A DNA stretch of 63,722 nucleotides, the filler included, from Folioceros fuciformis (Eukaryota), in NCBI GenBank assembly GCA_049999805.1. It is 11 parts of 11 records of this genome, joined end to end, with 100 filler letters (N's around TTAATTAATTAA, not from the genome) between each part and the next. Parts side by side here need not be neighbours in the genome. Positions count along the whole stretch, not along the records: positions 62,323 to 63,722 come from JBNGIO010001204.1; 10 more parts are not named here. One strand, given 5' to 3'. The notes under the pieces are model-generated. The model made no database searches and was not told the origin of the DNA. It was given only the letters and a program-made list of their open reading frames with translations. Shown here piece by piece: positions 10,097 through 63,722 of the stretch (positions are counted from its first letter, which is position 1; each line of letters starts with the position of its first letter). Both the position numbers and the translations under genes were made by a program.

Positions 10097-11572
10097 TCAT
10101 AGCCAATTCCTTATCAGTCGAGCTGCCGCTCGTATGATGGGCCCGCTGGATCGATTTGGTCTGGAGAAGATGCCAGAATGCACTGTCTCTGCGCCGCTGT
10201 AGAGAGAATCCCGCTCTAGCCGTAGCCTCTTCTGCAGATGCGCGTCCTTGGTCACAAGGAACAGCTGAGCCTCCAGATCCCGGTGCCTGGAGCGATGCCC
10301 AAAGTTTGAGCTCCCAATGATCGTGACGCTGGGACAGCCGGAGCCGCCGGGTCGGTCCGGCAGCGCGCACCAGGCGCCCTTGGCATGGAAGGTCCAGCCC
10401 GGCCTGTGGTATTCTTGGATGCGCACGCGGCCCTGAGCTGTGGCTTCCTGGCAACGGCTGTGGAACTGCTGCTCGTAGACGGAGTAGATGTGCGGGATGA
10501 ATCTGGAGACGCCAGCGGAGCCGTAGAAGCCGTTGGCCTGCGGGGAGGCTGTGAGGATGTGCAGGTTTTTGTCGCCTGCAGCGGCGTGGAGCGCGGACTC
10601 TAATTCTGGGGTGAGGTTGAAGTATGCGGAAGCCAGATGGATGTGTGAGCCTGTGGGCATGTTGTTGAGGAGCCAGAGAGTGCAGAGTTCATCTTGCAGA
10701 ATGGCCAATGGCCCCATCTGGAGGGTGGGCAACACCCAGGTGCTGCTCCTGTGTAGCATAGAGGCCTGTGACTGTGGTTCTTCTAGCTTCATTTCCCTCC
10801 TCACCGCATCGCCCATTCGCTTGCGAAAAAGAGAGGGGTCCTGCACCGGATCCACCATGGTTGGAGGAGGCAAGAGCTGCCCTGTCTTGTCCAGCGTGTA
10901 GGAGAATGAGGCAACGGTGTCAACCAGTCGAAAGAGCCAGCTTGCCAGATCCTTGCAGCCGGAGAAGAGCATGTACCGGTCCTGCCTGTCGGTGAAGTAG
11001 GATGTGCTCAGGTTGGCTCCGGTCATCAGCACCGTATCGTCGAAGACATAAGCTTTGATGTGGAACACCCCCATGCCCTCATTGAATCTGGCAGGCAACA
11101 CCAGCTTCACAGCCCCGGCGAGGTCCGGAGTGTGGTATAGGGACACGCTCAATCTGCCGTCGTCTCCTGCTGCTCCTGATCGCCTCCACTTGGCTTTGTT
11201 TGACAGAAGCATGTCACAGAGCATCCCTGAGCTGGAGGTAAAGCAAGGGGATTCCCTGGTGGGTCGTGTGGACCTGAGGGCATCGAACAACAAGGTGACG
11301 CGGAGTGCCGGGTTGCTAGCCAGGGCCTCTCCCACGGCATCCAGCAGTTGTTGCTCCAGCTGGCCCGTGCCCACATACAGGGACGCCATCACCACCCTCT
11401 CTCTTGCGTTTTTGATGCCATCCAGGAGGGCGCGGTAGAAATCTGCAGGAGATTCCAGAATCTTTACGCTGTCGCTGCCCACCGGAAAGATGTGGCCTGT
11501 ATCTGCGAGTCCCCGCAGTAGCACATCATGAAAGCTATTCTCCTCCATCTGCTCCAGGTTGCGGCAAGCCAT
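10097..11572 (-). CDS. PGS1: PLD-superfamily CDP-diacylglycerol:glycerol-3-phosphate phosphatidyltransferase (PGS1-type), intronless
   Basis: 491-aa ORF with SLYVGTG, HIKAYVFDD...TGANLSTSYFTDRQDRY, SAYFN, ASPQANGFYG and TFHAKG...GSSNFGHRSRHRDLEAQ, which are the two-HKD motifs of fungal/animal PGS1. Confidence 0.9.
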   Translation of the reverse strand: MACRNLEQMEENSFHDVLLRGLADTGHIFPVGSDSVKILESPADFYRALLDGIKNARERVVMASLYVGTGQLEQQLLDAVGEALASNPALRVTLLFDALRSTRPTRESPCFTSSSGMLCDMLLSNKAKWRRSGAAGDDGRLSVSLYHTPDLAGAVKLVLPARFNEGMGVFHIKAYVFDDTVLMTGANLSTSYFTDRQDRYMLFSGCKDLASWLFRLVDTVASFSYTLDKTGQLLPPPTMVDPVQDPSLFRKRMGDAVRREMKLEEPQSQASMLHRSSTWVLPTLQMGPLAILQDELCTLWLLNNMPTGSHIHLASAYFNLTPELESALHAAAGDKNLHILTASPQANGFYGSAGVSRFIPHIYSVYEQQFHSRCQEATAQGRVRIQEYHRPGWTFHAKGAWCALPDRPGGSGCPSVTIIGSSNFGHRSRHRDLEAQLFLVTKDAHLQKRLRLERDSLYSGAETVHSGIFSRPNRSSGPIIRAAARLIRNWL

Positions 11573-12082
11573 AGCCCCTGAAACTACCGGACCTAAAGAT
11601 TAGTGCTGGTATCGTGACCTAAACTCCTCCCTATCCATTGCCAGCCATCCTACAGGGTATCTGGAAGTGATTGGCCGAACTCCTGGGCTCTCCGGCGGTT
11701 GTAGTGCTGCCGCCTTCCCTGTGATTGCTGCCGGAACGACCTGAGGACAAAATTTCGTCTTCGGGATCACTCGAGGGCCTCCACAACCCCCTGACCTCAA
11801 CAAGCCAGCACTGGGAATGTCGTGGGCCAAGTGTTAATCATACACATTATCAAGAACAGCATGCAAGACCTATAGTAAGATCCCCCCTTGGGATTGGATG
11901 TCTGATTAGTAAGCGAGGGAGCTTATTAGGAGGGAGCAAGTTCTGCTGACTGACGTCCTTCCTGTTGATGCAAACTGACAATCCAATTCGTGTTACAAAC
12001 GTAACTGGACAGGGACCTTTTTGAACGTCAAATGAGGAAGCTATGCTAAAGTCCCGGCTGCATTGCTTTGGGTGCACTAGAA

Positions 12083-13660
12083 CTACTCCAACTCGTGCAC
12101 GGGGGCGATATTGTTGCCAGAGCTACTGGAGGACGGAGAGGAAGGGGAATCCCACTGATTGTCTGCCTTCGGGAGCATCTGTTCAGAGCTGTTCCTCTTG
12201 TTGAGTTTGTTGGAGAGGGGCAGAATGAGCAGCAAGAAGGCCAGAGATCCAACTCCGAAAGCAACTGCAGCAGCCCCAAGAACAATACCGGAGATGGCTC
12301 CTCTGGACAGAGTAACACCCGAGTAGCCGTGCTCATGGCCTGGCTGTGACAAGCTTGAATTGAGGTCCCCCGTGTCAAGGCCTGTTTGGGTAGGAGGAGG
12401 AGAGGATACAGAAACGGCTGCTGGGGGCACAGAAACATCCGAGATAATGTTCAACACCCTCACGTTGTCTATGACTGGCCAACATCCACCCTCAGGCGGT
12501 GTCAAGCTCTCGAAGGTGAGAGTGGTCCAATCACTCTCAGCTAGGAATGTGAACACGGGAGTGCCCCAGACAAGGTACTGACTCGAACCTGAGCCAGATA
12601 TGTTGTGTGATTGGGACTCCAAGCTGGATGGTGAGACACTGACTTGCACTGAAGCCTGGCTGACGTTAGAGCACTCTGGCGCTGCCACTTCGAAGACAAG
12701 GACGTAGAAGGATCCTGGTGTTGTGGGCACCACCTGGCTCAGAGCTCCTTTGTCTGAATTGCCATGGAGCAGCACACTTAGAGAACCCGGGCCCCCAGCA
12801 GCACCGCTGTAGACTTTGAGCGTCACTGTCCCGTTGGGGACACTCCAGAAACACAGACCGAAGATGTCATCTGAAGACTGCATCTCCACCCACAGATTAG
12901 CGTCCGTTATGCTGTCGTCCAGGTAGCTGGAAAGCTCAAATCCTCCATTTCGAACTATGTCATTCATGGTGGCCCCCGTAGTCTGTACAGAAAAGGAGCT
13001 GGAATTGACATAAGACGACCTTGGCACCACCGATACGACTTCGGTCATATTAGGCGGAAGTTCATACAATCCAGGGTCATCCATGCGGGCAAGAACACAG
13101 GAACGCCAGGGCCGCTTGGCGTCAGAATCCTGCATCCGATCTTTTGGATACAGCATGGCCAGGTAAAGGGGTCCTTTCTGACCGTTGTCACCCAAGCTGT
13201 CATGCGTCCTCACTCGCCCATCTTGAGCTCCCACCACCCAATATTGATCTGAAGAGTTTGTGCAAGCGGCTACTACAGCAGAATTGTCTGCAACGTTGGG
13301 CTGGAGGCACAGAGTCTGCTGGCTGTGGGGTTCCACGATAGTGATGCTGCTGGCGTTGTCATTCACACTCTCCACAATCCACTGCTGATTGGGTGAAGAT
13401 CCCTGGCAGCTCCCGAAGCCCACCACCTTCCCACTGTAAACCTCTGACGCGTCGGAGTCGTCCACCTCGAGACACCGACCAGGGCACGTGGGCATGGGCA
13501 CCTTGGTGTCCGCCATGAGCCAGCTCCAGCCCTCCACTTGTCTCCCAGAAATGAGCATTCCCAAAAGAACAAGCCCCCACAGGAACCCGCCCCGGGAAGA
13601 ACCGCTCCTGGGCCATGCCAGCCAGAACACTATTCCTCCGAAAGGTCCCCACGCCATCAA
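12083..13660 (-). CDS. Predicted type I membrane protein: signal peptide, ricin-B-like lectin, DUF642/galactose-binding-like domain, S/P stalk, TM helix, short tail; intronless
   Basis: Hydrophobic N-terminus; CLEV...C...NQQW and CLQ...C...DQYW (QxW ricin repeats); IVRNGGFE...LSQVVPTTPGSFYVLVF...TTLTFES...PVIDNV; TM GAISGIVLGAAAVAFGVGSLAFLLLILPL. Confidence 0.75.
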   Translation of the reverse strand: MMAWGPFGGIVFWLAWPRSGSSRGGFLWGLVLLGMLISGRQVEGWSWLMADTKVPMPTCPGRCLEVDDSDASEVYSGKVVGFGSCQGSSPNQQWIVESVNDNASSITIVEPHSQQTLCLQPNVADNSAVVAACTNSSDQYWVVGAQDGRVRTHDSLGDNGQKGPLYLAMLYPKDRMQDSDAKRPWRSCVLARMDDPGLYELPPNMTEVVSVVPRSSYVNSSSFSVQTTGATMNDIVRNGGFELSSYLDDSITDANLWVEMQSSDDIFGLCFWSVPNGTVTLKVYSGAAGGPGSLSVLLHGNSDKGALSQVVPTTPGSFYVLVFEVAAPECSNVSQASVQVSVSPSSLESQSHNISGSGSSQYLVWGTPVFTFLAESDWTTLTFESLTPPEGGCWPVIDNVRVLNIISDVSVPPAAVSVSSPPPTQTGLDTGDLNSSLSQPGHEHGYSGVTLSRGAISGIVLGAAAVAFGVGSLAFLLLILPLSNKLNKRNSSEQMLPKADNQWDSPSSPSSSSSGNNIAPVHELE

Positions 13661-14384
13661 GCCCAGCTCCAGTGTCGCAAGCTAGCAATGAGCCTAGCGA
13701 CAATTTAGTCGGTAAAGCCCTTCCTCTTCCGCGGGGCCTCAACCCATCAATTTCAATTACGTACTAGCAGTATCCGATGCTACTTCCACTCTCTGGAGCC
13801 CTTCCCCGCAGCCTGAATCCGCCATGCCACAACCTCCACTCACTACTGCTGCTGCTCCGGATTCCTACTCCTGGCATATATCACAAAAAGCAGCAAGCAG
13901 AGCACCAGCACAACCGACTGCATTTCCAGAACCAGGCAAGGAACGACGAGGAGCACAAGGAGCTCCACAAGCATGCGGAGGGCACAGCTGGCGATACACC
14001 GAGCACCAATTTCCGCACGAGGGAGATCCCTTCTCCGCCAGTCCACCGCTAGCTCACAATGCGATCTTCACGGTGAAGAAGGACGTAATGACCCACAGAT
14101 CTGGAAGCATGAGAATGCAGCTCCACATTACAGTGACGCGCAGCCCGCACGCACAGAGAGGGAAGAGCGCACAAAACAAAGGAAGGCAGAGGCGGTTGCA
14201 GAAATGGTGAGCGCTGACACTTTGAGCAGAAGTGAACAAGAGCAAAGGCGGTGGCTACCAAGCTGAGAGATATGGGGAGGTGGGGGCGCAGTTTGACGCA
14301 ATGGGGCGCCTCACGTGCAATATGCACGGTTTCCAGAAGCAGTCAGAGACCAGCTACAGGCCACGCCAAGACCAAGACCAAGAC

Positions 14385-53793: not shown

Positions 53794-54516
53794 GAATTGA
53801 AAAACTCTTGGGTCGTCGTTGCCCTACTTGTTGTCTGGGTTGTGCTCCTGTGTCGAAAGCGGTCACGGTGGGAGAAACGAGGTCGCACTCGCACTTGCCT
53901 CTCTCCTGGAGCATTTTCGACTGTTGCCGTGTCTTGTCTGCTTTGCCACATGTCGTCGCCTGGTTTAGTCCACCAACCATTCTAGAACCTCACGCCTTCC
54001 AGACTGTCATTGTTTCACACTAGCGTCACCCACCCTTCATGGCCTCCCAGCTACCGTATCAAGGACCTCGTCTTACTCACACCTAAATGAGCAAACGACA
54101 GGACGTACATAAATGCGTACATCTCCGTCTGTACACATGACAAAGCCACACGAGGCTGTGGAATGGAGACTCACGCTCGCGTAACTCTCGGTGTAACCAA
54201 GTTTTCACTCCGATGGATGTGGTAATACTGAAAAGTGCGGGCAACATTCTAATTCGGCTTGAATACATCCGAGCGAGATCCCAGATGTAGATGGATTCTA
54301 TTGGAGTTCAGGATGGAGGTTGGATTTCCGAATTGTCGTGCAGGCCACTCAGAGTGGAGAAAAGACTTCCGATTTATGTTGGAGTCCACTCAGGATGGAG
54401 ATGGATTTCGCCTTGCTGCCTGGTTGCTTGCACCAATTGATTTTAGCCACCCTGTCCCTGTGAGTACCGATCCAAGCGCGCTCAACCACTTTCTTATACA
54501 CGTTTGTGCATTTGGC

Positions 54517-57500
54517 CTAAGCCATTTGGTTCTGCCCAGAAGCTTTGTCCCGGTTAAACCGGAAGAAATGATGAAGCAACTTGTGGACATCTCCGTAACT
54601 CCCAGTCACGGACACCAGTCGTTCTCTGATCCAGCCAGGCAGCTTCGAAGTTGGAGTAGATTGGCCTCCCGTTGTGTATCTGGAATCAACCAGAAGGATC
54701 GCAGCATAATCTCCAATGTGCCTGATGGCCCTTCCTGCAAGACGTCCAAGATTCTCGTCATGTTCCTGCAACAGAAGCCAGGGAAAAGGTGAGAGGGATA
54801 TTAAGCCTCTTGTCTTACCGATAGACTGGTTCACAGCCTTCATGCACAGGTTCTCGTAGTACTCCTTACTCCGCTGGGTACTATGTTTTTGGTGGTCCTC
54901 GACAGGCATTTGGTCAAGGTATTTCATTCGCTCCATGAGTTCAGGGTCCCCTGGACTCGGGTATGGTAGCCCAACCATCACCACACACCTACCCATGCTG
55001 TCACTGAAGTTGATGCCTTCTGACATCTTGCCTCCAACCACGCACAGTAATACAGCGCCTCGTTTCATGCTAGCTCCTACCGCTGAGGCTGTTGTGATGC
55101 TCTCCTTGTACCTGATTAAGGTGGCCTCCACATCTACCGTGTTCCTGGGCTCTCTAAAAACTGTCTTCTTCTTCTCCATGGTACTCAGAACCCCAGAGCT
55201 TCTCCAGAATGAGAACACTTGGTTTTCATACTCGAAAGACGGAAAGAAAACTACGATTCCCTCTGGAACCACGGAACAAATATTGGACATGAGCCTTCCC
55301 AGTTCCTCAATCTGAGACGGGGCCAGGGAAGAGCTTAGTCAGGAAATTGGCTCGCAAACCACGCCACGGATGTCCTGTGCATCATCAATACAGAAGCAAG
55401 GCATAACATGTGGGGAGAAAGGCTCACCATGGTGTGAGAACCTCGGGCTTGGTAAGTGAAATCGAAGGATTTTCCTCCCGGACCTCGAGCCACAGCGATG
55501 GGGAGGATACTCTCAGGTGGGACGATGTGACCACAGGAGAACATATGTACCTTGTCGTCTGACAGACTGGGAAACAACCGGGCCCTCAGTTCAGCAACAG
55601 GCTGCAAAGTTCCTCCGGCAAGTACAACAGCCCTTGCCTGCTCCAGAACCTGGAAGCATGCCCTGCCCATCAACAGTTTTAGTTGTTGTGGAGAAAACAA
55701 CGAATCATCGGACATAAGCGTGCCAGACTTTCAATTACAGGAATGAGAGACGGGACACAAGTAGAGCACATTTGCACCTCAGCAAAGTGTTTGCCCACGT
55801 TGAGCATCATGAACTTGATAGACCCACCAGGATCATCCGAATGTGCACTTGTGCCACCAGCTGACTTGAGCAGTACGCGCCCATCACTATCGGCATTTGT
55901 AAGAGCCAGGATGAACTCAGCAAAAGAATGGAATGCAGTCATGCCACTAACTGCATGTTCTGGGAAAGTCCATCGGCCATCAATAGAGGAGGCGTGTTGC
56001 TCAAGTAGAACCCTCTCACCGTAGCTACTGACCTGGAAGAACCGTGCGAGTGTTAGGACCGCTGTTGGCTTTGGGTTGTAGAGACAAACAGAACATCTCG
56101 ATGTTTAGTTGCCCACGACGTGAAAGACCCCACCTTGTGAACAATGTTGCTTTCCTTGATGTACCGCTGCAGCTTGAAGATATTGATGTTGTCAATGGAG
56201 AGGGAGAAAAGGAAATCGTTGATGGACATAACCACTGGGCTCGCATGAGGACGTGTTTTGCCACTGAGCTTTTCATCTACGATGGTGCTCCCTGACGAGG
56301 AGGAGATGGATGAGATTCGGTTCAAGAATGCTTTTACCAGTATCAGAATGGTCTCAATATAACGGCGATTCCCAGCAGCCAGCCGGCTTCGGAATCTTCC
56401 CAAGTACTCAGACACCTGGGAGTGCACTTGCTTCAGCTGCCACATAGAGGTACAACTGTCAGAATGCAACGACGAACAATCCACAAGCTGAGCAGTGAGT
56501 CAGGAATCCACAAGCAAGGTGCGCAAGCTCCCCCACCTGCTGGAAAGAGAGCTGGCAACTGTGAAGATCAGACACCGTGTCCACCAGATTATGAGCTTCA
56601 TCAATTATGACGACAGCATTGCTCATTTTGAGCCCCAGAGATTCCCGAGTAGAAGCGTGGAGCAAGGACTGATATGGCAGTACCACGAGGTCCGCAGAAG
56701 GCAGAGCCAACCGACAACCATAGTATGGACAAGAGCCAAGTTTTGTCCCCAGCTGCACCAAGTCTTCTATATCCATTGCAGCAGACCCCGTGAGCTCCTC
56801 TTTGAATTTGGTTTGCAGCTTCTGCTTCCGCAGAAAAGGACACCCTCCGCCCTTGGACTCGTTTCGTTTCTTGTGGGCGTCCTTAGTTATCTGCATCAGA
56901 CAGGGGACACAAGCACAACCACGAGCCGGTAAGCGACACGAACGAGCATTATGATGTGGTAGCACCAGCCTGAGACCCACCCTCTCCGTTGTGTCACCTT
57001 ACCACTGGTCTTGTTTTTGAGCAACTCCAGACATCGCTCATTCATTCTGGCAGCGCTCCCGAGCTTTCTCACATCTGCATCGCAAATACATGCACAAACA
57101 AACTCAAACCTTGGGCACGAGTTCTGTCCACGTCATTCTCAAGGAGAGTGCAGCGGATACTCACCAGGATTGATGCAAAGTGTCTTCCGAGAGCCCAACG
57201 ACACCACTTGCAAGGACGAAGAGAAATGCGTCCTCTGCAATTCACCGATGAACTGCGAAAGCTGCGAGTGCGTACGACTGCAGAAAAACACCTTCAACCT
57301 TTTCTCCACGTCCGTTTCCAAATGAACTTCATCCTCCCCCTCGCTGCTGCTAGGGCAGCCTGCCGTATATGCTTTCCGCTTCCCTCCACACTGTTCATCT
57401 TCACTCTGGTAGTCATCCAGCAAGAAGCACCCATCGTCATCGTCGACGCCACTGGCAACAGCAGCTCCCTGTCGTCTGGACCCAAAACCTGCTTCTTCAC

Positions 57501-58031
57501 ACTCTCTTTCCCCATCACCCCCGTCCAGAAACGACCGCACGACGGCAGGCTTCTTCCTGACCCTGGCCAGCTGCTTCTTGGCAGGCTTCGCCTCCTCACT
57601 CTGGCTGCGGCTGAAGTCCCTCAACCACTGTGGCTGATCGGGCATGTCGCCACTGGGCGCCTTCTCCCAACCGGTCACGGCAGTCGAGCTGCTCAAACAA
57701 TGCTGCTGGTCTTCCAGCCATTGCAATGCACTACAGATGAGGCTGAGAGTCTTTCCCGTCCCTACAAGAATCAAAATCCATCAAAGACCACACGAGAGAA
57801 AAATTTGCAGTGCGACCCACAACAAACAAACAAGAGGCCTAGGGCGCTGCAGCTCGTTGCTTCCCCCATCTCACCAGTCGGACTCTCCACTACGGCAACT
57901 CCACCTTGCTGGATGGCCCGGTAGACAGCGCTCATGAATTCCAGCTGAATAGGGTACGGATGGAACGGGAAGGCGGGAAATCGGACCAATGCAGCATCCG
58001 GGCCCGGAGCCGGGCTCTGCGAGTCCACCAT
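54517..58031 (-). CDS. DDX11: DDX11/ChlR1 (Chl1) Fe-S DEAH DNA helicase, multi-exon
   Basis: FPFHPYPIQ, ESPTG|TGKTLSLIC, CSRTHSQLSQF, LGSRKTLCIN, CPYY, IIDEAHNL, LAGGTLQP, VVGGKMSEGINFSD, AVNQSIG|RAIRH. Confidence 0.95.
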
Positions 58032-58198
58032 CCGCAGGCTACGACGATCAGTGAAGAGAACTTGCTTGTTAGCATCTTGCCTATGTATATTGCGTTATTA
58101 TTCTCCAGTTAAATTGCGTATATTCTCGTCCAACTACCTCTCCCCCTTAGGCGAAGCTCCTCCTAAGCCGTTGATCCTACACTCGGACGGAGAAGGGA

Positions 58199-58945
58199 AT
58201 GGCAGGCTTGGCGATGGCGGCTGTGATGACTCTGGCGACGGTGGCCCCCGTGCGGGCCACGGAGGCGGCCCTCTCGGCGGCAGCCGCGTCCTGCTCTTAC
58301 AACAACAATGCAGCTTCGGCGATGGCCGGATGGCGGCTGCGGTCCGGGAGCAGGAGCAGCGGGGAGCCTGAGAGGTCACGGCGGGAGCTGGGATGGAGCC
58401 GGAGCTCTTGGAGCGGGGACCTGTCGATGCAGTGCGGGGCTAAGAGCGGGGAGATGAGCAGGCGGGTGAGGGCCACAGTGGAGGCGAAGCAGGGGGACGA
58501 GCTGTCGTATGTGATGGTGAAGCCGGACGGAGTTCAGCGGGGGCTGGTAGGGGAGATCATCAGCAGGTTCGAGAGGAAGGGGTTCAAGCTCAGGGGGCTG
58601 AAGCTGTTCCAGACGCCGCAGGATCTGGCGGAGGAGCACTACGCGGAGCTGAAGGAGCGGCCTTTCTTCCCCAAGCTGGTGAAGTACATCGTGTCAGGCC
58701 CCGTGGTGGCGATGGCGTGGGAGGGGCCCGGGGTGGTGGCTTCTGCCCGGAAGATCATCGGTGTAACTAACCCGCTGCTGGCTGAGCCCGGGACAATCAG
58801 GGGGGATTTCGGGATCGAGGTCGGCAGGAACGTGGTGCACGGCAGTGATAGTGCAGAGAACGGCCTCCGCGAGGTGGCATTGTGGTTCAAGGAGGGTGAG
58901 CTGGTGGAATGGGATCCCGAGCTCACACCGTGGCTCAGGGAGTGA
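58199..58945 (+). CDS. NDPK2: Nucleoside diphosphate kinase 2, chloroplast-type, intronless
   Basis: Ala/Ser/Arg-rich transit peptide, [26 protein letters not shown], catalytic RNVVHGSDS and C-terminus [11 protein letters not shown]. Confidence 0.93.
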
Positions 58946-59437
58946 GAGGGAGACTGTCCGTTCCCTTTTTGAAGCTTGCTTGTTGTTCCTTCAGTCCCTT
59001 TTTTGTGGCCCTCCCAAATCCTGCGACGTGTTGTTGCACATCCCTCTGCTGTGTGTGCATAGGCTCATTGCCATCAGGTCATTTTTGTTGTGACTGGACT
59101 CATCCAGTGATGGATTGAGGAGGAAGAGACCTTAAGTACAGGCCTCCGTCGGCTTGCTTCTTTGCATTCTTACGGCTTCATCTGGATGCAGTTCAAATCC
59201 AGAACTTTGCTCTGCACTGTACGAGATCAAGCTATTAGTATGATATGGAGCTGACTGCAGGGGTGAATAAGGGCTCTCCGTCTGGTACATTGAACCGATG
59301 CGCATGGTATGCATATCCACGATCTACAACTTTAGAAGACTACCACTCCCGAGTATACAGTATACGAGCCAAGCATGGCTCCTTGATTAAAGGAATATTC
59401 AATAATCATTCAGCTCTATTTATTATCAGCAATCTCT

Positions 59438-59543
59438 ATCCAAGCATAACCCCTTGATTATCTAATATCAAGAATCCAAGCATGGCCCCTTGATTATCTA
59501 ATATCAAGAATCCAAGCATGGCCCCTTGATTATCTAATATCAA
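59438..59543. repeat. Tandem repeat, ~3 x 36 bp
   Basis: ATCCAAGCATGGCCCCTTGATTATCTAATATCAAGA at 59438, 59474 and 59510. Confidence 0.88.
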
Positions 59544-59559
59544 TAAGCTCTATTTAATA

Positions 59560-60045
59560 TCAGCAATCTTTATCCAATCATCTGCCAAACTCTATCCAAT
59601 CGTCATGAAGCAGCTATCCACTCTCCAACCTCTATTCAACCACCATGAAGCTCTGTCCAATCACTACCAAACTGTGTTCAATCATCACGAAGCTCTATCC
59701 AATTCCTGCAAAGCTCTGTCCAATTCCCACAAAGCTTTGTCCAATTCCCACAAAGCTCTATCCAATTCCCGCAAAGCTCTATCCTCCAATTCCCGCAAAG
59801 CTATATCCAATTCCCGCAAATCTCTATTCAATAACCATGAAAATCTGTTCAATCACAGTGAAGCTCTATCCAATCACCATGAAGCTCTATCCAATCACCG
59901 TGAAGCTTCATCCAATCACCATGAAGCTCTGCTCAATCACTCTGAAGCTCAATCCAATCACCGTGAAGCTTCATCCAATCACCATGAAGCTCTGTTCAAT
60001 CATTGTGAAGCTCTATCCAATCACTGTCAAGGCCTATCTAATCCC
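59560..60045. repeat. 21-bp minisatellite (about 20 degenerate units)
   Basis: Consensus GAAGCTCTATCCAATCACCAT. It translates as HHEALSN or MKLYPIT heptads in two open frames. Confidence 0.9.
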
Positions 60046-61035
60046 CATTTTGAAGAACAAAGTTACTTGATTAAAACTTTGTATAGTTAAGCCTTGTCCA
60101 ATCATAGGTTGAAGTGAAGAATAAATTCCAGCTTTCTCATGATGAATTACTCTATACAATGTGCATACAACTCTTTTTTTTTGAAAAACCATAAATCTTT
60201 GAATTTTAAGGAAAATAAACATGATTGACTAAGGGTTAGTGGCATTGTAGTTTAAATACTTAGTTGTGAAATTTTTACTCTAATTTTATTTATTATTCTT
60301 CTATCTTATATATATATATATATATATAATATGGAGTCGTTACCATGAGGAAGAGATGGAGAGACCCATCTACCCCATAGCCAAAGAAGGAGGGTTAAAG
60401 GTGCATTTCCATGAAAGCATTTATCAAGTGTTACAAGGAATTATAATAAGTGATGCATTGCGGATCATAATAAAGCTTTACCAAGCACTAGTATTGGATA
60501 CAAGAACTTATGTCTATGGTATACATTATATACATTCGCTTGAACAATGCAACACTTAATAAAGAACCAAGCTTAGTAAGATAATTATACATAACAAGGC
60601 AACTTATTTCATTAATCTTAGTTTTTATGTTCATCAACATGCCCATTCTTAAACATTTATCGTAATCAATTCACAAAGGTTATAGATAATAGCTACATGA
60701 TCATATATAATCTCAACTTTGAAAGATATTCCCATGAATGCAATACATGAACAAAGGTGCAATTCTAAAGTGACTGTGTCTTTCCACTTGTCCTTTTACA
60801 ATACTTTCTACATCTCTTTCCTAGTAATTATAGGTCCTTTCTTTTTCAACACACACAAGTTTTTGAACGGCAGTCTCTATAAGCATATTATATAGTGCTT
60901 TTCATCTAGCCTTTGCCTATCAAAGGACACCTTTGCTTAGTGTGCTCCCAACTTTGTTCCGGGGTCAGGTTGGTGAAGTGCCACATTGGTCATGAGCATA
61001 AGGAATTCGACAAAACCACTTAGGTAGCACACGTG

Positions 61036-61149
61036 CATCTTGCTTCTTTTGAGCTACCGACTAATTCTCTTCTAGAGGAACCCCTGGGCTACATCTTGCT
61101 TCTTTTGAGCTACCGACTAATTCTCTTCTAGAGGAACCCCCTGGGCTAC
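61036..61149. repeat. Tandem duplication, 2 x ~56 bp
   Basis: CATCTTGCTTCTTTTGAGCTACCGACTAATTCTCTTCTAGAGGAACCCCTGGGCTA twice. Confidence 0.9.
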
Positions 61150-62084
61150 CCCTAGGAGCGTAGTTGTGGCTCTAAAGTTGTCGCCGGATTTGAACATTTG
61201 AAATTCATGTCATGTATCCACATTTATGTGCGTTTATTTTCAGCGATGCGTTATCATGTAGAAAAAATGTGTCGCGTAACATCGTAAGCATCATGTATTG
61301 TGTCAATATATGCGGATTTGTAGGTGTTCATAAAAACAAATCCATCATTGAACATAGTCATATGGCGAGTATCATGTTGTTCGCGCTTTATCCGATTTCA
61401 TGTTTAGTCCTAAGTGTTTGATTTATTTGTTTTCGTGTTCAGGCCGTTTCACTCAAATCATCACACTTGCGTATCTACCTTTCTTTCCAATCAATTGTTG
61501 CGTGACAATGCGCCGGTCCACCGGCGCACTATGGCAAAGTGCACCGATATATCAGCGCACAATGCCCTATTCTCATTACATGTGAATGAAAAGTTGAAAT
61601 GAACATCCATTCACAATGAAAGATAGTATATTAGTTTCAACTGAACAATTTGATCTAAACGTCTAACAAGACTTCGTCATTTTCAAGCAAAAGTGTTTCC
61701 TGGTCACGTTGCAGGCTGTACAAGTTTTTCCGAATTAGGTTGCTGGCACATGCCTTGATAAAATTAAAAATCTACATTGGAGGTATAATGTCGATGTTCC
61801 ATGGTTCTTGATTTCGAATATTTTCTTCAAGAGTGCGTCAATCTATTGGCACACTCCGCATTCACAACAAAGTGCAACGGTAGCCCTGCGCACTCTCCCC
61901 TAGGCCCATGCATTTTTTTTAGCATGAATATATAATATCAATAACATAAGTTCCAATAGGAATTGGGAATGGTGTAGTGGTTGGCATTAAGGTCTTATGT
62001 TCAACCTTTGATAAAAAATGGGAGGTTGTGTTCAACCTTCGATTCTACAAGCTCGATATCTAAATTTAAATTTTGGACCTCCAT

Positions 62085-62222
62085 TTTAAATCAGGAAAAC
62101 TTTCTTAAAAATATTCACTTAGTGCGCTGCTCTACCGGCACAACTAGACTTGAAAAGTTTATTTTCAATCAAGAAAACTTCTTAAATATACCCTCTTAAC
62201 TACAAGAGTGCACCGATCTACT
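62085..62222. repeat. Dispersed repeat unit, homologous to 53500-53693
   Basis: The reverse complement aligns by eye with the end of the previous contig. AATCAxGAAAACTTxCTTAAA occurs twice. Confidence 0.72.
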
Positions 62223-62322
62223 NNNNNNNNNNNNNNNNNNNNNNNNNNNNNNNNNNNNNNNNNNNNTTAATTAATTAANNNNNNNNNNNNNNNNNNNNNN
62301 NNNNNNNNNNNNNNNNNNNNNN
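62223..62322. other. Artificial contig spacer
   Basis: N44-TTAATTAATTAA-N44. Confidence 0.99.
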
Positions 62323-63722
62323 ATTACTCTTAAGATAAGTAATACCGAGATAGATACACCTCTAGCTACTATTACTAGTAATACTAGATACCTATCTAAA
62401 CTAGTAAAGAAATCTAATAAGTATTATAGTAACTATTAGAAGTTAGAATAGTAGATTATCTAGTAAAATATCTACTTCTATCTTAACTCTAATATTAATA
62501 CTAATAATTAAGTTATCTTAGTTACTACCTATATAAGAAAAGAAGTCTAAGACTAGATAACTTCTTTTTTTACTAAGTATATAGATAATAATATTACTAA
62601 TACTAAAAATATAAGAATATTTAAAGACTAGTTAGTCTTTAAAGACTACTTTAGAACTATCTTTAAAGTTTAGAAAAAAGAAGCTTAAACTAAATACTAA
62701 ATCTAGTACTTATAGTAGACTAAATTAGTTACTAAGTATACTATCTAATTTTAATAAATCTCTACTAGAATAAATTAGAATAATAATACTCTTAAGAAGA
62801 TATTCTATTAAGAACTTAAGCTATAAGTATACACTAAGTTTATATATAGTAGATTAAGTCTTAATATACTTAAAGAACTTCTTAATAAAAGTATCTATAT
62901 AGATAATAAGCTATATAAGTTAGAGCTTAAAGAATAAAGCTTTTATTAATAAAGAAATCTAGCTAATATAAATAAAAGAAAGTATACCTACTCTTAAAGC
63001 TCTTAAAAGGCTTATACTATAGAATACTATATCTCTAGCTAACTTAAAGTAATATACTTAGATAATATTAATTAGAAAGATAAGAAATAGAAAAAATTTA
63101 TAAAAAAGAAAGATAAGAATAATAAGAAAATATACTATAACTATAGTAAACTAGAGTACTTTACTAGAGACTATAAGTCTAAGAATAAAGTAATATATTA
63201 TATTAGTAGTATAATAAGTAGAAGAAGCTATAATATCTTTAACTAAATACTTAATATTCTTACTTAAGTAGAGAAAGAGAATAAAAGAAATTACTAGACT
63301 ATTATAATACTACTTATATCTAAATTAGATAGAAACTCTATACTAAATAGTATATTAGAACTAAATAGAAACTCTATTATAGAGATAATCTAGAGATTAT
63401 ATAATAATATAGAAATACTTAGTAATTAAGTTAACTAGATAAGAATTTAGAGTAATAATAAAAAGTATATTAAGAAAAATAAGAAAAATATTCTACTAGA
63501 TATAGATAAGTAGAATATTTCTAAAAATACTATAAACTACTAGAACTTTATATAGTAGTACTAATAAGAGAATATAGCTAAATAAAAGAAGTAAGAAAGT
63601 CTACTCTAAGAAGGCCTAGTTAATCTAGAAGATAAAGAAAAATAGTAGAAAACTTATAACTATAATAGAAATATATACTTAAGTAAAAGGCTAGTATATA
63701 GAGTATATAGAGCTTATAGACT
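62323..63722 (+). mobile_element. RIP-like hypermutated Ty3/Gypsy gag region, probably of ascomycete origin
   Basis: Extremely AT-rich, TpA-saturated and almost free of CpA/TpG. 63133-63177 reads YYNYSKLEYFTRDYK, which reverts to the zinc knuckle CYNCGKPGHFARDCK by undoing only C>T/G>A changes. Upstream remnants fit a retrotransposon gag (L.KIFY..LK, SI.IDNKLY). Confidence 0.85.

What the first reader, a model, noticed from the sequence alone, without database searches (positions are those of the whole stretch)
62323..63722. A fungal RIP-scarred Gypsy element among plant contigs
Seen: this contig has no ORF, TpA is everywhere, and CpA/TpG are nearly absent, unlike the AT-rich plant intergenic DNA elsewhere in the window. 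A hidden gag can be recovered: TAC TAT AAC TAT AGT AAA CTA GAG TAC TTT ACT AGA GAC TAT AAG becomes C-Y-N-C-G-K-P-G-H-F-A-R-D-C-K by reversing transitions only. Established: CpA-directed C>T on both strands is the signature of repeat-induced point mutation in filamentous ascomycetes, and RIP is not known in plants. Inference: the assembly contains an endophyte or contaminant fungus. The exciting but less likely alternatives are transferred fungal DNA or a RIP-like process in the plant.
Basis: partly seen in the sequence, partly recalled or inferred. Interest (0 to 1): 0.7.

Follow-up and report, generated by a model that had tools for sequence, protein, structure and literature searches.

The report
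Mutation-scarred fungal transposon in plant assembly
This short stand-alone contig is a dead fungal jumping gene riddled with the C-to-T mutations that filamentous fungi use against repeats, most likely left in a plant genome assembly by a co-sequenced fungus; it is ordinary biology, but it shows DNA that contamination filters can miss.

Summary
Observation confirmed. The 1,400-bp contig G000:C1204 has GC 0.21, TpA/ApT 1.74 and (CpA+TpG)/(ApC+GpT) 0.016 (2 sites against 113 expected). Read with X at stops, it matches intact Ty3/Gypsy gag proteins over 445 residues. C>T/G>A changes alone explain 209 of 261 differences (shuffled mean 53; reverse direction 7). The intact relatives group with a Pyrenophora element and a chromodomain-bearing element, apart from the host's own gags. 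One correction: CpA, CpG and CpC are all lost; only CpT is spared. All 20 such contigs found are 1.0-2.8 kb and scarred end to end, with no plant flank. The plant's own Gypsy loci (30 of 30) are unscarred. Five marker searches found no fungal genes or rDNA, and a sixth found no full cox1 from any source, while an angiosperm-type rDNA contig survives. Best reading: RIP-saturated repeats of a co-sequenced ascomycete that passed a filter as no-hit sequence. Depth and linkage against host contigs were not tested. The scan's notes held no earlier report of this reading. A side observation, DNMT3-bearing host Gypsy elements, was noted before in moss genomes.

The parts
62323..63722 (.). Whole stand-alone contig G000:C1204, saturated with C:G>T:A changes on both strands (CpA, CpG, CpC lost; CpT spared)
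62350..63690 (+). Broken gag reading frame (47 stops in 466 codons, all TAA or TAG) of a Ty3/Gypsy element; matches residues 1-445 of intact P0158 (41%, E 7e-113) and 8-444 of P0004
62515..62817 (+). Region aligned to the Retrotrans_gag (PF03732) capsid domain of the intact relatives; bounds approximate
   Evidence: Pfam on P0004 residues 54-154; mapping through P0158. The broken copy itself gives no Pfam hit
63127..63180 (+).
63181..63722 (+). Start of the long C-terminal gag extension typical of this lineage; the contig ends before the WCCH region and before pol
   Evidence: 131 of 152 differences from P0004 over contig residues 200-456 fit C>T/G>A
62223..62322 (.). N44-spacer-N44 joint of the window; not genomic linkage to the plant contig 53794-62222

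Best explanation
The contig is part of one dead copy of a chromovirus-type Ty3/Gypsy LTR retrotransposon from a filamentous ascomycete (probably a Dothideomycete; weak inference) whose DNA was sequenced with a non-seed land plant. In the fungus, repeated rounds of repeat-induced point mutation turned nearly every C outside CpT to T on both strands, which killed gag and removed its similarity to database entries. The assembly was then filtered, by taxonomy or organelle screening. That removed fungal contigs with recognisable genes, rDNA or RT, and kept plant-labelled and no-hit contigs, so only scarred repeats remain. Shown: the directional scar, gag identity, lineage apart from host gags, lack of plant flanks, unscarred host repeats, no fungal markers found. 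Inferred: RIP as the cause, a living fungus in the sample, and the filtering step.
For: Directional changes: 209 of 261 differing residues against P0158 fit C>T/G>A only (1,000 shuffles: mean 53.4, max 70; reverse direction 7); sister copy L007 against P0004, 157 of 166; 42 of 46 aligned stops face Gln, Arg or Trp. Lineage: the copies group with P0004/P0158 (100/100), on the side of a Pyrenophora tritici-repentis gag-pol (P0415) and a chromodomain-bearing element (L119), split from 8 host gags (100/100). P0415 is 40-44% identical to the intact gags; host gags are 21-28%. P0415's RT is 76% identical to L119's; the listed non-fungal named hits are 51% or less. No junctions: all 20 scarred contigs are 1,040-2,783 bp with no unscarred 200-nt window (max substrate index 0.27, in an adapter-bearing contig). 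Host control: 30 of 30 host Gypsy pol loci have composite index -0.25 to -1.14; 22 of 22 host gag matches have 0-2 stops. Filter signs: no full cox1 from any source; an angiosperm-type rDNA contig is kept; the runs holding the element total 213-323 Mb of contigs against an 87-Mb assembly.
Against: No fungal gene, 18S, 5.8S or ITS-primer match was found, so the fungus is not shown directly; the three Pfam searches had no positive control and one search ran with a stricter first look. The AU test did not reject a tree joining the scarred copies to host gags (p 0.185); the copies differ in composition and sit on a long branch. A Berkeleyomyces (fungal) hit was only 46% identical, and Atlas taxa were uninformative. 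Repeats break short-read contigs, so short flankless contigs would also arise from true insertions. Filtering is inferred, not documented.
Confidence: 0.85

Rival explanations
1. Same fungal origin, no filtering: the fungus was at very low coverage and only its saturated repeats assembled, because RIP drives copies towards shared words and pools their depth, giving mosaic contigs.
For: Several contigs are artefactual: 7 of 12 gapped scarred contigs are two identical halves, some join gag to upstream sequence in the opposite orientation, and one holds a Tn5 adapter. Only 0.45-0.48 of this contig's words occur in the best runs. Hundreds of variant unitigs cover it.
Against: Fungal rDNA and mitochondria are multicopy and should assemble first, yet were not found. 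Listed unitigs have depths of 3-19. The protease region was found on 1 contig against 16 with gag matches, which fits removal of conserved pol better than pooling, though one search scored only one candidate.
Confidence: 0.08
2. Fungal DNA that was already RIP-scarred has been inserted into the plant genome and is inherited with it.
For: Scarred repeats are present while fungal genes are not; the family occurs in three runs of one sample.
Against: No plant junction in 20 contigs. At least 16 distinct copies, 71-93% identical at DNA level, plus unrelated scarred sequence (L177, most of L017), would need a large block or many events. Dead copies cannot spread in the plant, and CpA has not begun to return (0-4 per kb). 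Run X3, on record as the same sample, holds 0.04 of the words and a different variant set, though contigs drop rare variants.
Confidence: 0.04
3. The plant has its own RIP-like process, perhaps through one of its many DNA methyltransferases, acting on this family.
For: The host encodes at least 52 PF00145 matches, many of them on retroelements.
Against: Host multicopy Gypsy loci, including those bearing a methyltransferase, keep an excess of CpA (substrate index 1.2-1.75). 0 of 60 evenly spaced contigs are scarred. No intact or partly scarred copy of this family was found in the assembly. The element groups with fungal relatives.
Confidence: 0.01
4. A technical or other deamination process: bisulfite-converted reads, APOBEC-type editing, or ordinary 5mC decay.
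For: C>T changes dominate.
Against: Both strands are hit, unlike single-strand conversion. TpC is not depleted (126 sites), unlike TpC-directed APOBEC editing (recalled). Host 5mC decay lowers CpG and raises CpA/TpG, the opposite of this pattern. Copies differ from one another at CpT sites (352 of 377 context-scored transitions), which a uniform lab conversion would not give.
Confidence: 0.02

Closest known systems
Repeat-induced point mutation of Pezizomycotina (Neurospora crassa, Leptosphaeria maculans, Stagonospora nodorum; PMC4352252 and PMC3017866, passages read)
   Same: C:G>T:A on both strands of repeated DNA, CpA/TpG to TpA, and loss of recognisability to BLAST (stated in PMC3017866).
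   Different: Here it is near saturation, CpG and CpC are lost too, and only CpT is spared; PMC4352252 lists CpT as a target in Botrytis, Sclerotinia and Magnaporthe. No RID gene or fungal gene space is present in this assembly.
Fungal Chromoviridae (chromodomain Ty3/Gypsy; PMC3248453, passages read), closest named member a Pyrenophora tritici-repentis gag-pol (P0415)
   Same: Gag with Retrotrans_gag, zf-CCHC and a long WCCH-bearing extension; the relative L119 has PR-RT-RH-IN-chromodomain in an overlapping frame; a sister contig runs from the gag end into a protease 48% identical to a chromodomain pol (P0442).
   Different: Only 40-44% gag identity between the intact relatives and P0415; no LTR, RT, integrase or chromodomain was recovered for this family in the assembly.

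Membership tests
RIP-mutated repeat | TpA/ApT high and (CpA+TpG)/(ApC+GpT) low | tested here: met
   1.74 and 0.016; 2 sites against 113 shuffled
RIP-mutated repeat | Directional C>T and G>A changes relative to an intact form, both strands | tested here: met
   209 of 261 against 7 in reverse, shuffled max 70 (protein-level test, intact DNA not available)
RIP-mutated repeat | Sequence is repeated, with transition-rich differences among copies | tested here: met
   21 DNA matches; transitions 110 of 117 against the closest copy and 788 of 1,245 over 11 copies; 169 of 185, 176 of 192 and 141 of 146 in runs
RIP-mutated repeat | CpA as the preferred target | tested here: inconclusive
   CpA is the most depleted across the copies, but CpG and CpC are also lost; an end state cannot give rates
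RIP-mutated repeat | Arises in an ascomycete with a RID/Masc1 gene during the sexual cycle | not testable with these tools
   No fungal genes found in the assembly; of 52 PF00145 matches, the 20 loci fetched showed DRM/DNMT3-like, CMT-like or retroelement-borne frames or none readable, judged by eye
Ty3/Gypsy (Metaviridae) | Gag capsid and CCHC knuckle | tested here: met
   Through intact relatives: PF03732, PF19259, PF00098; no direct Pfam hit on the broken copy
Ty3/Gypsy (Metaviridae) | pol order PR-RT-RH-IN | tested here: inconclusive
   Seen in relative L119; in this family only the protease was found, on L121
Ty3/Gypsy (Metaviridae) | LTRs, primer site, target-site duplication | not tested
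   Contigs are too short and partly chimeric
Fungal Chromoviridae | Chromodomain at the integrase C-terminus | tested here: inconclusive
   Present in relatives L119 and P0442; region not recovered for this family
Fungal Chromoviridae | Groups with fungal elements, not the host plant's | tested here: met
   Gag tree 100/100 and identities; the AU test against joining with host gags was not significant (p 0.185)
Plant-integrated (transferred) DNA | Physical joins to host sequence | tested here: not met
   0 of 20 scarred contigs hold an unscarred window; short-read contigs limit this test

The most novel reading that the evidence does not exclude
A block of RIP-saturated ascomycete repeats, with no fungal genes beside it, is truly integrated in the nuclear genome of a non-seed land plant; less likely still, the plant itself performs RIP-like hypermutation on this one family. 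Linkage to plant DNA was not testable here, so this is not excluded.
Probability: 0.05. Interest if true: 0.75.

Novelty: new member of a known kind. Interest (0 to 1): 0.2.

Why it matters
As biology it is expected: RIP-scarred chromoviruses are common in filamentous ascomycetes. The practical point is that RIP hides fungal repeats from similarity-based contamination screens. They can stay in plant assemblies after the fungal genes are gone, and be mistaken for plant repeats or gene transfer. A dinucleotide index finds them at no cost, and they betray an unseen sexual ascomycete living on or in the plant. Two full-text searches for this blind spot listed no paper that, by title or abstract start, describes it; the library lacks most subscription papers. 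If the DNA were integrated, it would be a striking case of fungus-to-plant transfer of non-coding DNA.

Tried and rejected
Pfam on 16 X-read frames of the contig and five sister contigs: 0 hits at E up to 1; only a profile search without a word index found the family. Scan for the DNA of P0004 in metagenome contigs: only two relatives at 41-42%. Atlas features of P0004: gag families confirmed, taxa uninformative. Pol search of the assembly with L119: swamped by host elements (48 of 1,325 candidates scored), so it says nothing on scarred pol. L119 pol and its antisense ORF against 19 scarred contigs: no hit; closer pol proteins hit only the L121 protease. Run X4 (5 Mb) had no match, which is no evidence. 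No genome-wide count of scarred contigs was obtained: 0 of 60 evenly spaced contigs, 2 of 14 and 1 of 20 numerical neighbours; one further flagged neighbour, L163 (GC 0.62, substrate index 1.13), was dropped as not scarred. The AU test was ill-posed because it left P0004/P0158 out of the forced group. Paper searches for RIP-like processes or transfer in land plants listed only fungal papers; the search for fungal contamination in a lycophyte genus listed nothing relevant; one search found nothing. Earlier-finding look-ups by place, words and sequence gave nothing relevant to the main finding.

Full report
Observation. The window is 11 contigs joined by artificial spacers. The finding is one whole contig, G000:C1204, of 1,400 bp, in an assembly of 87.2 Mb and 7,240 contigs. 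It has GC 0.21, TpA/ApT 1.74 and (CpA+TpG)/(ApC+GpT) 0.016; the other ten contigs have composite indices of -0.39 to -0.97. CpA plus TpG number 2, against 113 on average and never fewer than 84 in 2,000 shuffles, and no frame is open for more than 52 codons.

What it encodes. Pfam finds nothing in the broken frames. A profile of four X-read copies searched against 1.84 billion proteins returned 614 hits at E up to 0.001, the best being P0004 (766 aa, E 4e-132). Ten of 11 top hits scanned carry Retrotrans_gag and zf-CCHC. The contig aligns to residues 1-445 of the intact relative P0158 at 41%. Of 261 differing residues, 209 fit C>T or G>A changes only, against 7 for the reverse direction and a shuffled mean of 53 (max 70); 42 of 46 aligned stops face Gln, Arg or Trp. 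Sister copy L007 gives 157 of 166 against P0004. The first 199 residues fit P0158 better (88 of 108) and the rest fit P0004 better (131 of 152), so subfamilies are mosaic.

Lineage. A metagenome relative, L119, shows gag overlapping a PR-RT-RH-IN-chromodomain pol in another frame. By identity, its closest organism-named RT among 120 listed is from Pyrenophora tritici-repentis (P0415, 76%); named non-fungal hits are 51% or less, and one other fungal hit is 46%. P0415 shares the gag architecture and is 40-44% identical to P0004 and P0158. In a 27-row gag tree the three scarred copies group with P0004/P0158 (100/100), on the P0415 and L119 side of a 100/100 branch from eight host gags. An AU test did not reject joining the copies to host gags (p 0.185), and the copies are compositionally biased. 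Sister contig L121 runs from the gag end into a protease 48% identical to chromodomain pol P0442. Most fungal Gypsy elements are Chromoviridae (PMC3248453, passages read).

The host. Neighbouring contigs encode a PsaN-like protein and land-plant-type dihydrolipoamide dehydrogenase and NDPK II. A third protein is 51-62% identical to both liverwort and seed-plant homologues. The main rDNA looks non-seed-plant by eye. A small-genome non-seed plant such as a lycophyte is my inference, not tested.

Where the scarred DNA sits. P0004 gave 48 matches in the assembly. 26 lie on 16 short contigs with 31-52% identity and 5-55 stops each; 22 are host gags at 21-28% with 0-2 stops. No intact copy of the family was found. 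I found 20 scarred contigs in all, 1,040-2,783 bp, none with an unscarred 200-nt window. One (L177) is unrelated to the family and one (L017) barely related, so more than one repeat type is scarred. They are rare: 0 of 60 evenly spaced contigs (first 2 kb or less). All 30 host Gypsy pol loci examined are unscarred. Seven of 12 gapped scarred contigs are exact duplications and one holds a Tn5 adapter (adapter identity recalled), so this part of the assembly is poor.

The missing fungus. Searches found no Zn2Cys6, chitin synthase or Fungal_trans domain (no positive control), no fungal 18S among 9 matches or 5.8S among 4 and no fungal ITS primer site. The only cox1 match is a 61-residue fragment, so not even the host's full mitochondrial gene was found. 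An angiosperm-type rDNA contig, C6555, is present (judged by eye). This pattern fits a filter that keeps plant-labelled and no-hit contigs. RIP makes repeats unrecognisable to BLAST (PMC3017866, passages read). The filter itself is inferred.

Reads. Two runs hold 0.48 and 0.45 of the contig's words, a third from the same sample 0.04, and a small run from another sample none. Laid at 85% likeness, 201, 290 and 167 contigs cover the stretch, with transitions making up 169 of 185, 176 of 192 and 141 of 146 changed places; listed pieces have depths of 3-19, and the runs total 213-323 Mb of contigs. These runs may be the source sample, so they are not independent.

Mechanism and comparison. RIP makes C:G>T:A changes in duplicated DNA before meiosis, mostly at CpA, needs RID, and is described as fungal-specific; secondary targets vary by species (PMC4352252, passages read). 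The scar here works like saturated RIP, and the element is a fungal-type chromovirus by its relatives. A RID gene and the fungal host could not be tested. A process intrinsic to the plant is contradicted by the unscarred host repeats. Integration is contradicted by the lack of joins and the number of distinct dead copies, but is not excluded. Supplements of the cited papers were not read; none of the claims above rests on them.

Verdict. A real, well-spotted feature with an ordinary cause: a new member of a known kind, interest 0.2. The chance of true integration or a plant process is about 0.05.

Noticed in passing
G000:C5196:2209-9366 (L156), C5615 (L157), C6012 (L158), and L101, L104, L106, L110-L114, L116-L118: Host Ty3/Gypsy elements carry a DNMT3-like C5 methyltransferase in frame between protease and RT; L156 is one 2,386-codon frame ending in a PHD finger, and L158 has a 300-nt 98% direct repeat 9.2 kb apart. 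It resembles KnitGypsy-Dnmt3 of Klebsormidium (PMC5890265, passages read). Earlier scan notes report such elements in moss genomes. In the copies read, the motif IV Pro-Cys dipeptide (recalled) appears as Glu-Cys. Probably more interesting than the finding itself.
   Followed up: partly
L009 / L038 = G000:C6555: A second, angiosperm-type 18S-ITS-28S contig (judged by eye) beside the host's own rDNA: a likely second plant contaminant.
   Followed up: partly
L004 = G000:C4397; L008, L018, L019, L122, L123, L124: Scaffolds made of two identical halves around 10 Ns; L004 also holds a Tn5 adapter and a long A run: assembly artefacts.
   Followed up: yes
L099 (C5799), L100 (C4599), L102 (C6088): Host cellular methyltransferases: two long single-frame DRM/DNMT3-like genes with rearranged motifs and a CMT-like gene, judged by eye.
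   Followed up: no
L010 (C5603), L012 (C5371), L013 (C1830), L014 (C6233), L036 (C6113): Dispersed and degenerate host rDNA pieces; in L012 an 18S piece, telomere-type repeats and 28S follow a Copia-like pol.
   Followed up: no
window 12083-13681 (-): Single 532-codon frame with DUF642 and a weak beta-trefoil lectin match below the Pfam cut-off.
   Followed up: no
window 10097-11599 (-): Single 500-codon frame with PLD-like domains.
   Followed up: no
L119:4118-4858 (-): The intact relative has an antisense 246-codon Cys-rich ORF after pol with no Pfam hit; two related gags (P0012, P0163) carry a fungal Zn2Cys6 match.
   Followed up: partly
L017 (C2600), L177 (C3769), L016:1-2200 (C177): Scarred sequence largely unrelated to this gag: other repeat types of the same source, unidentified.
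   Followed up: partly
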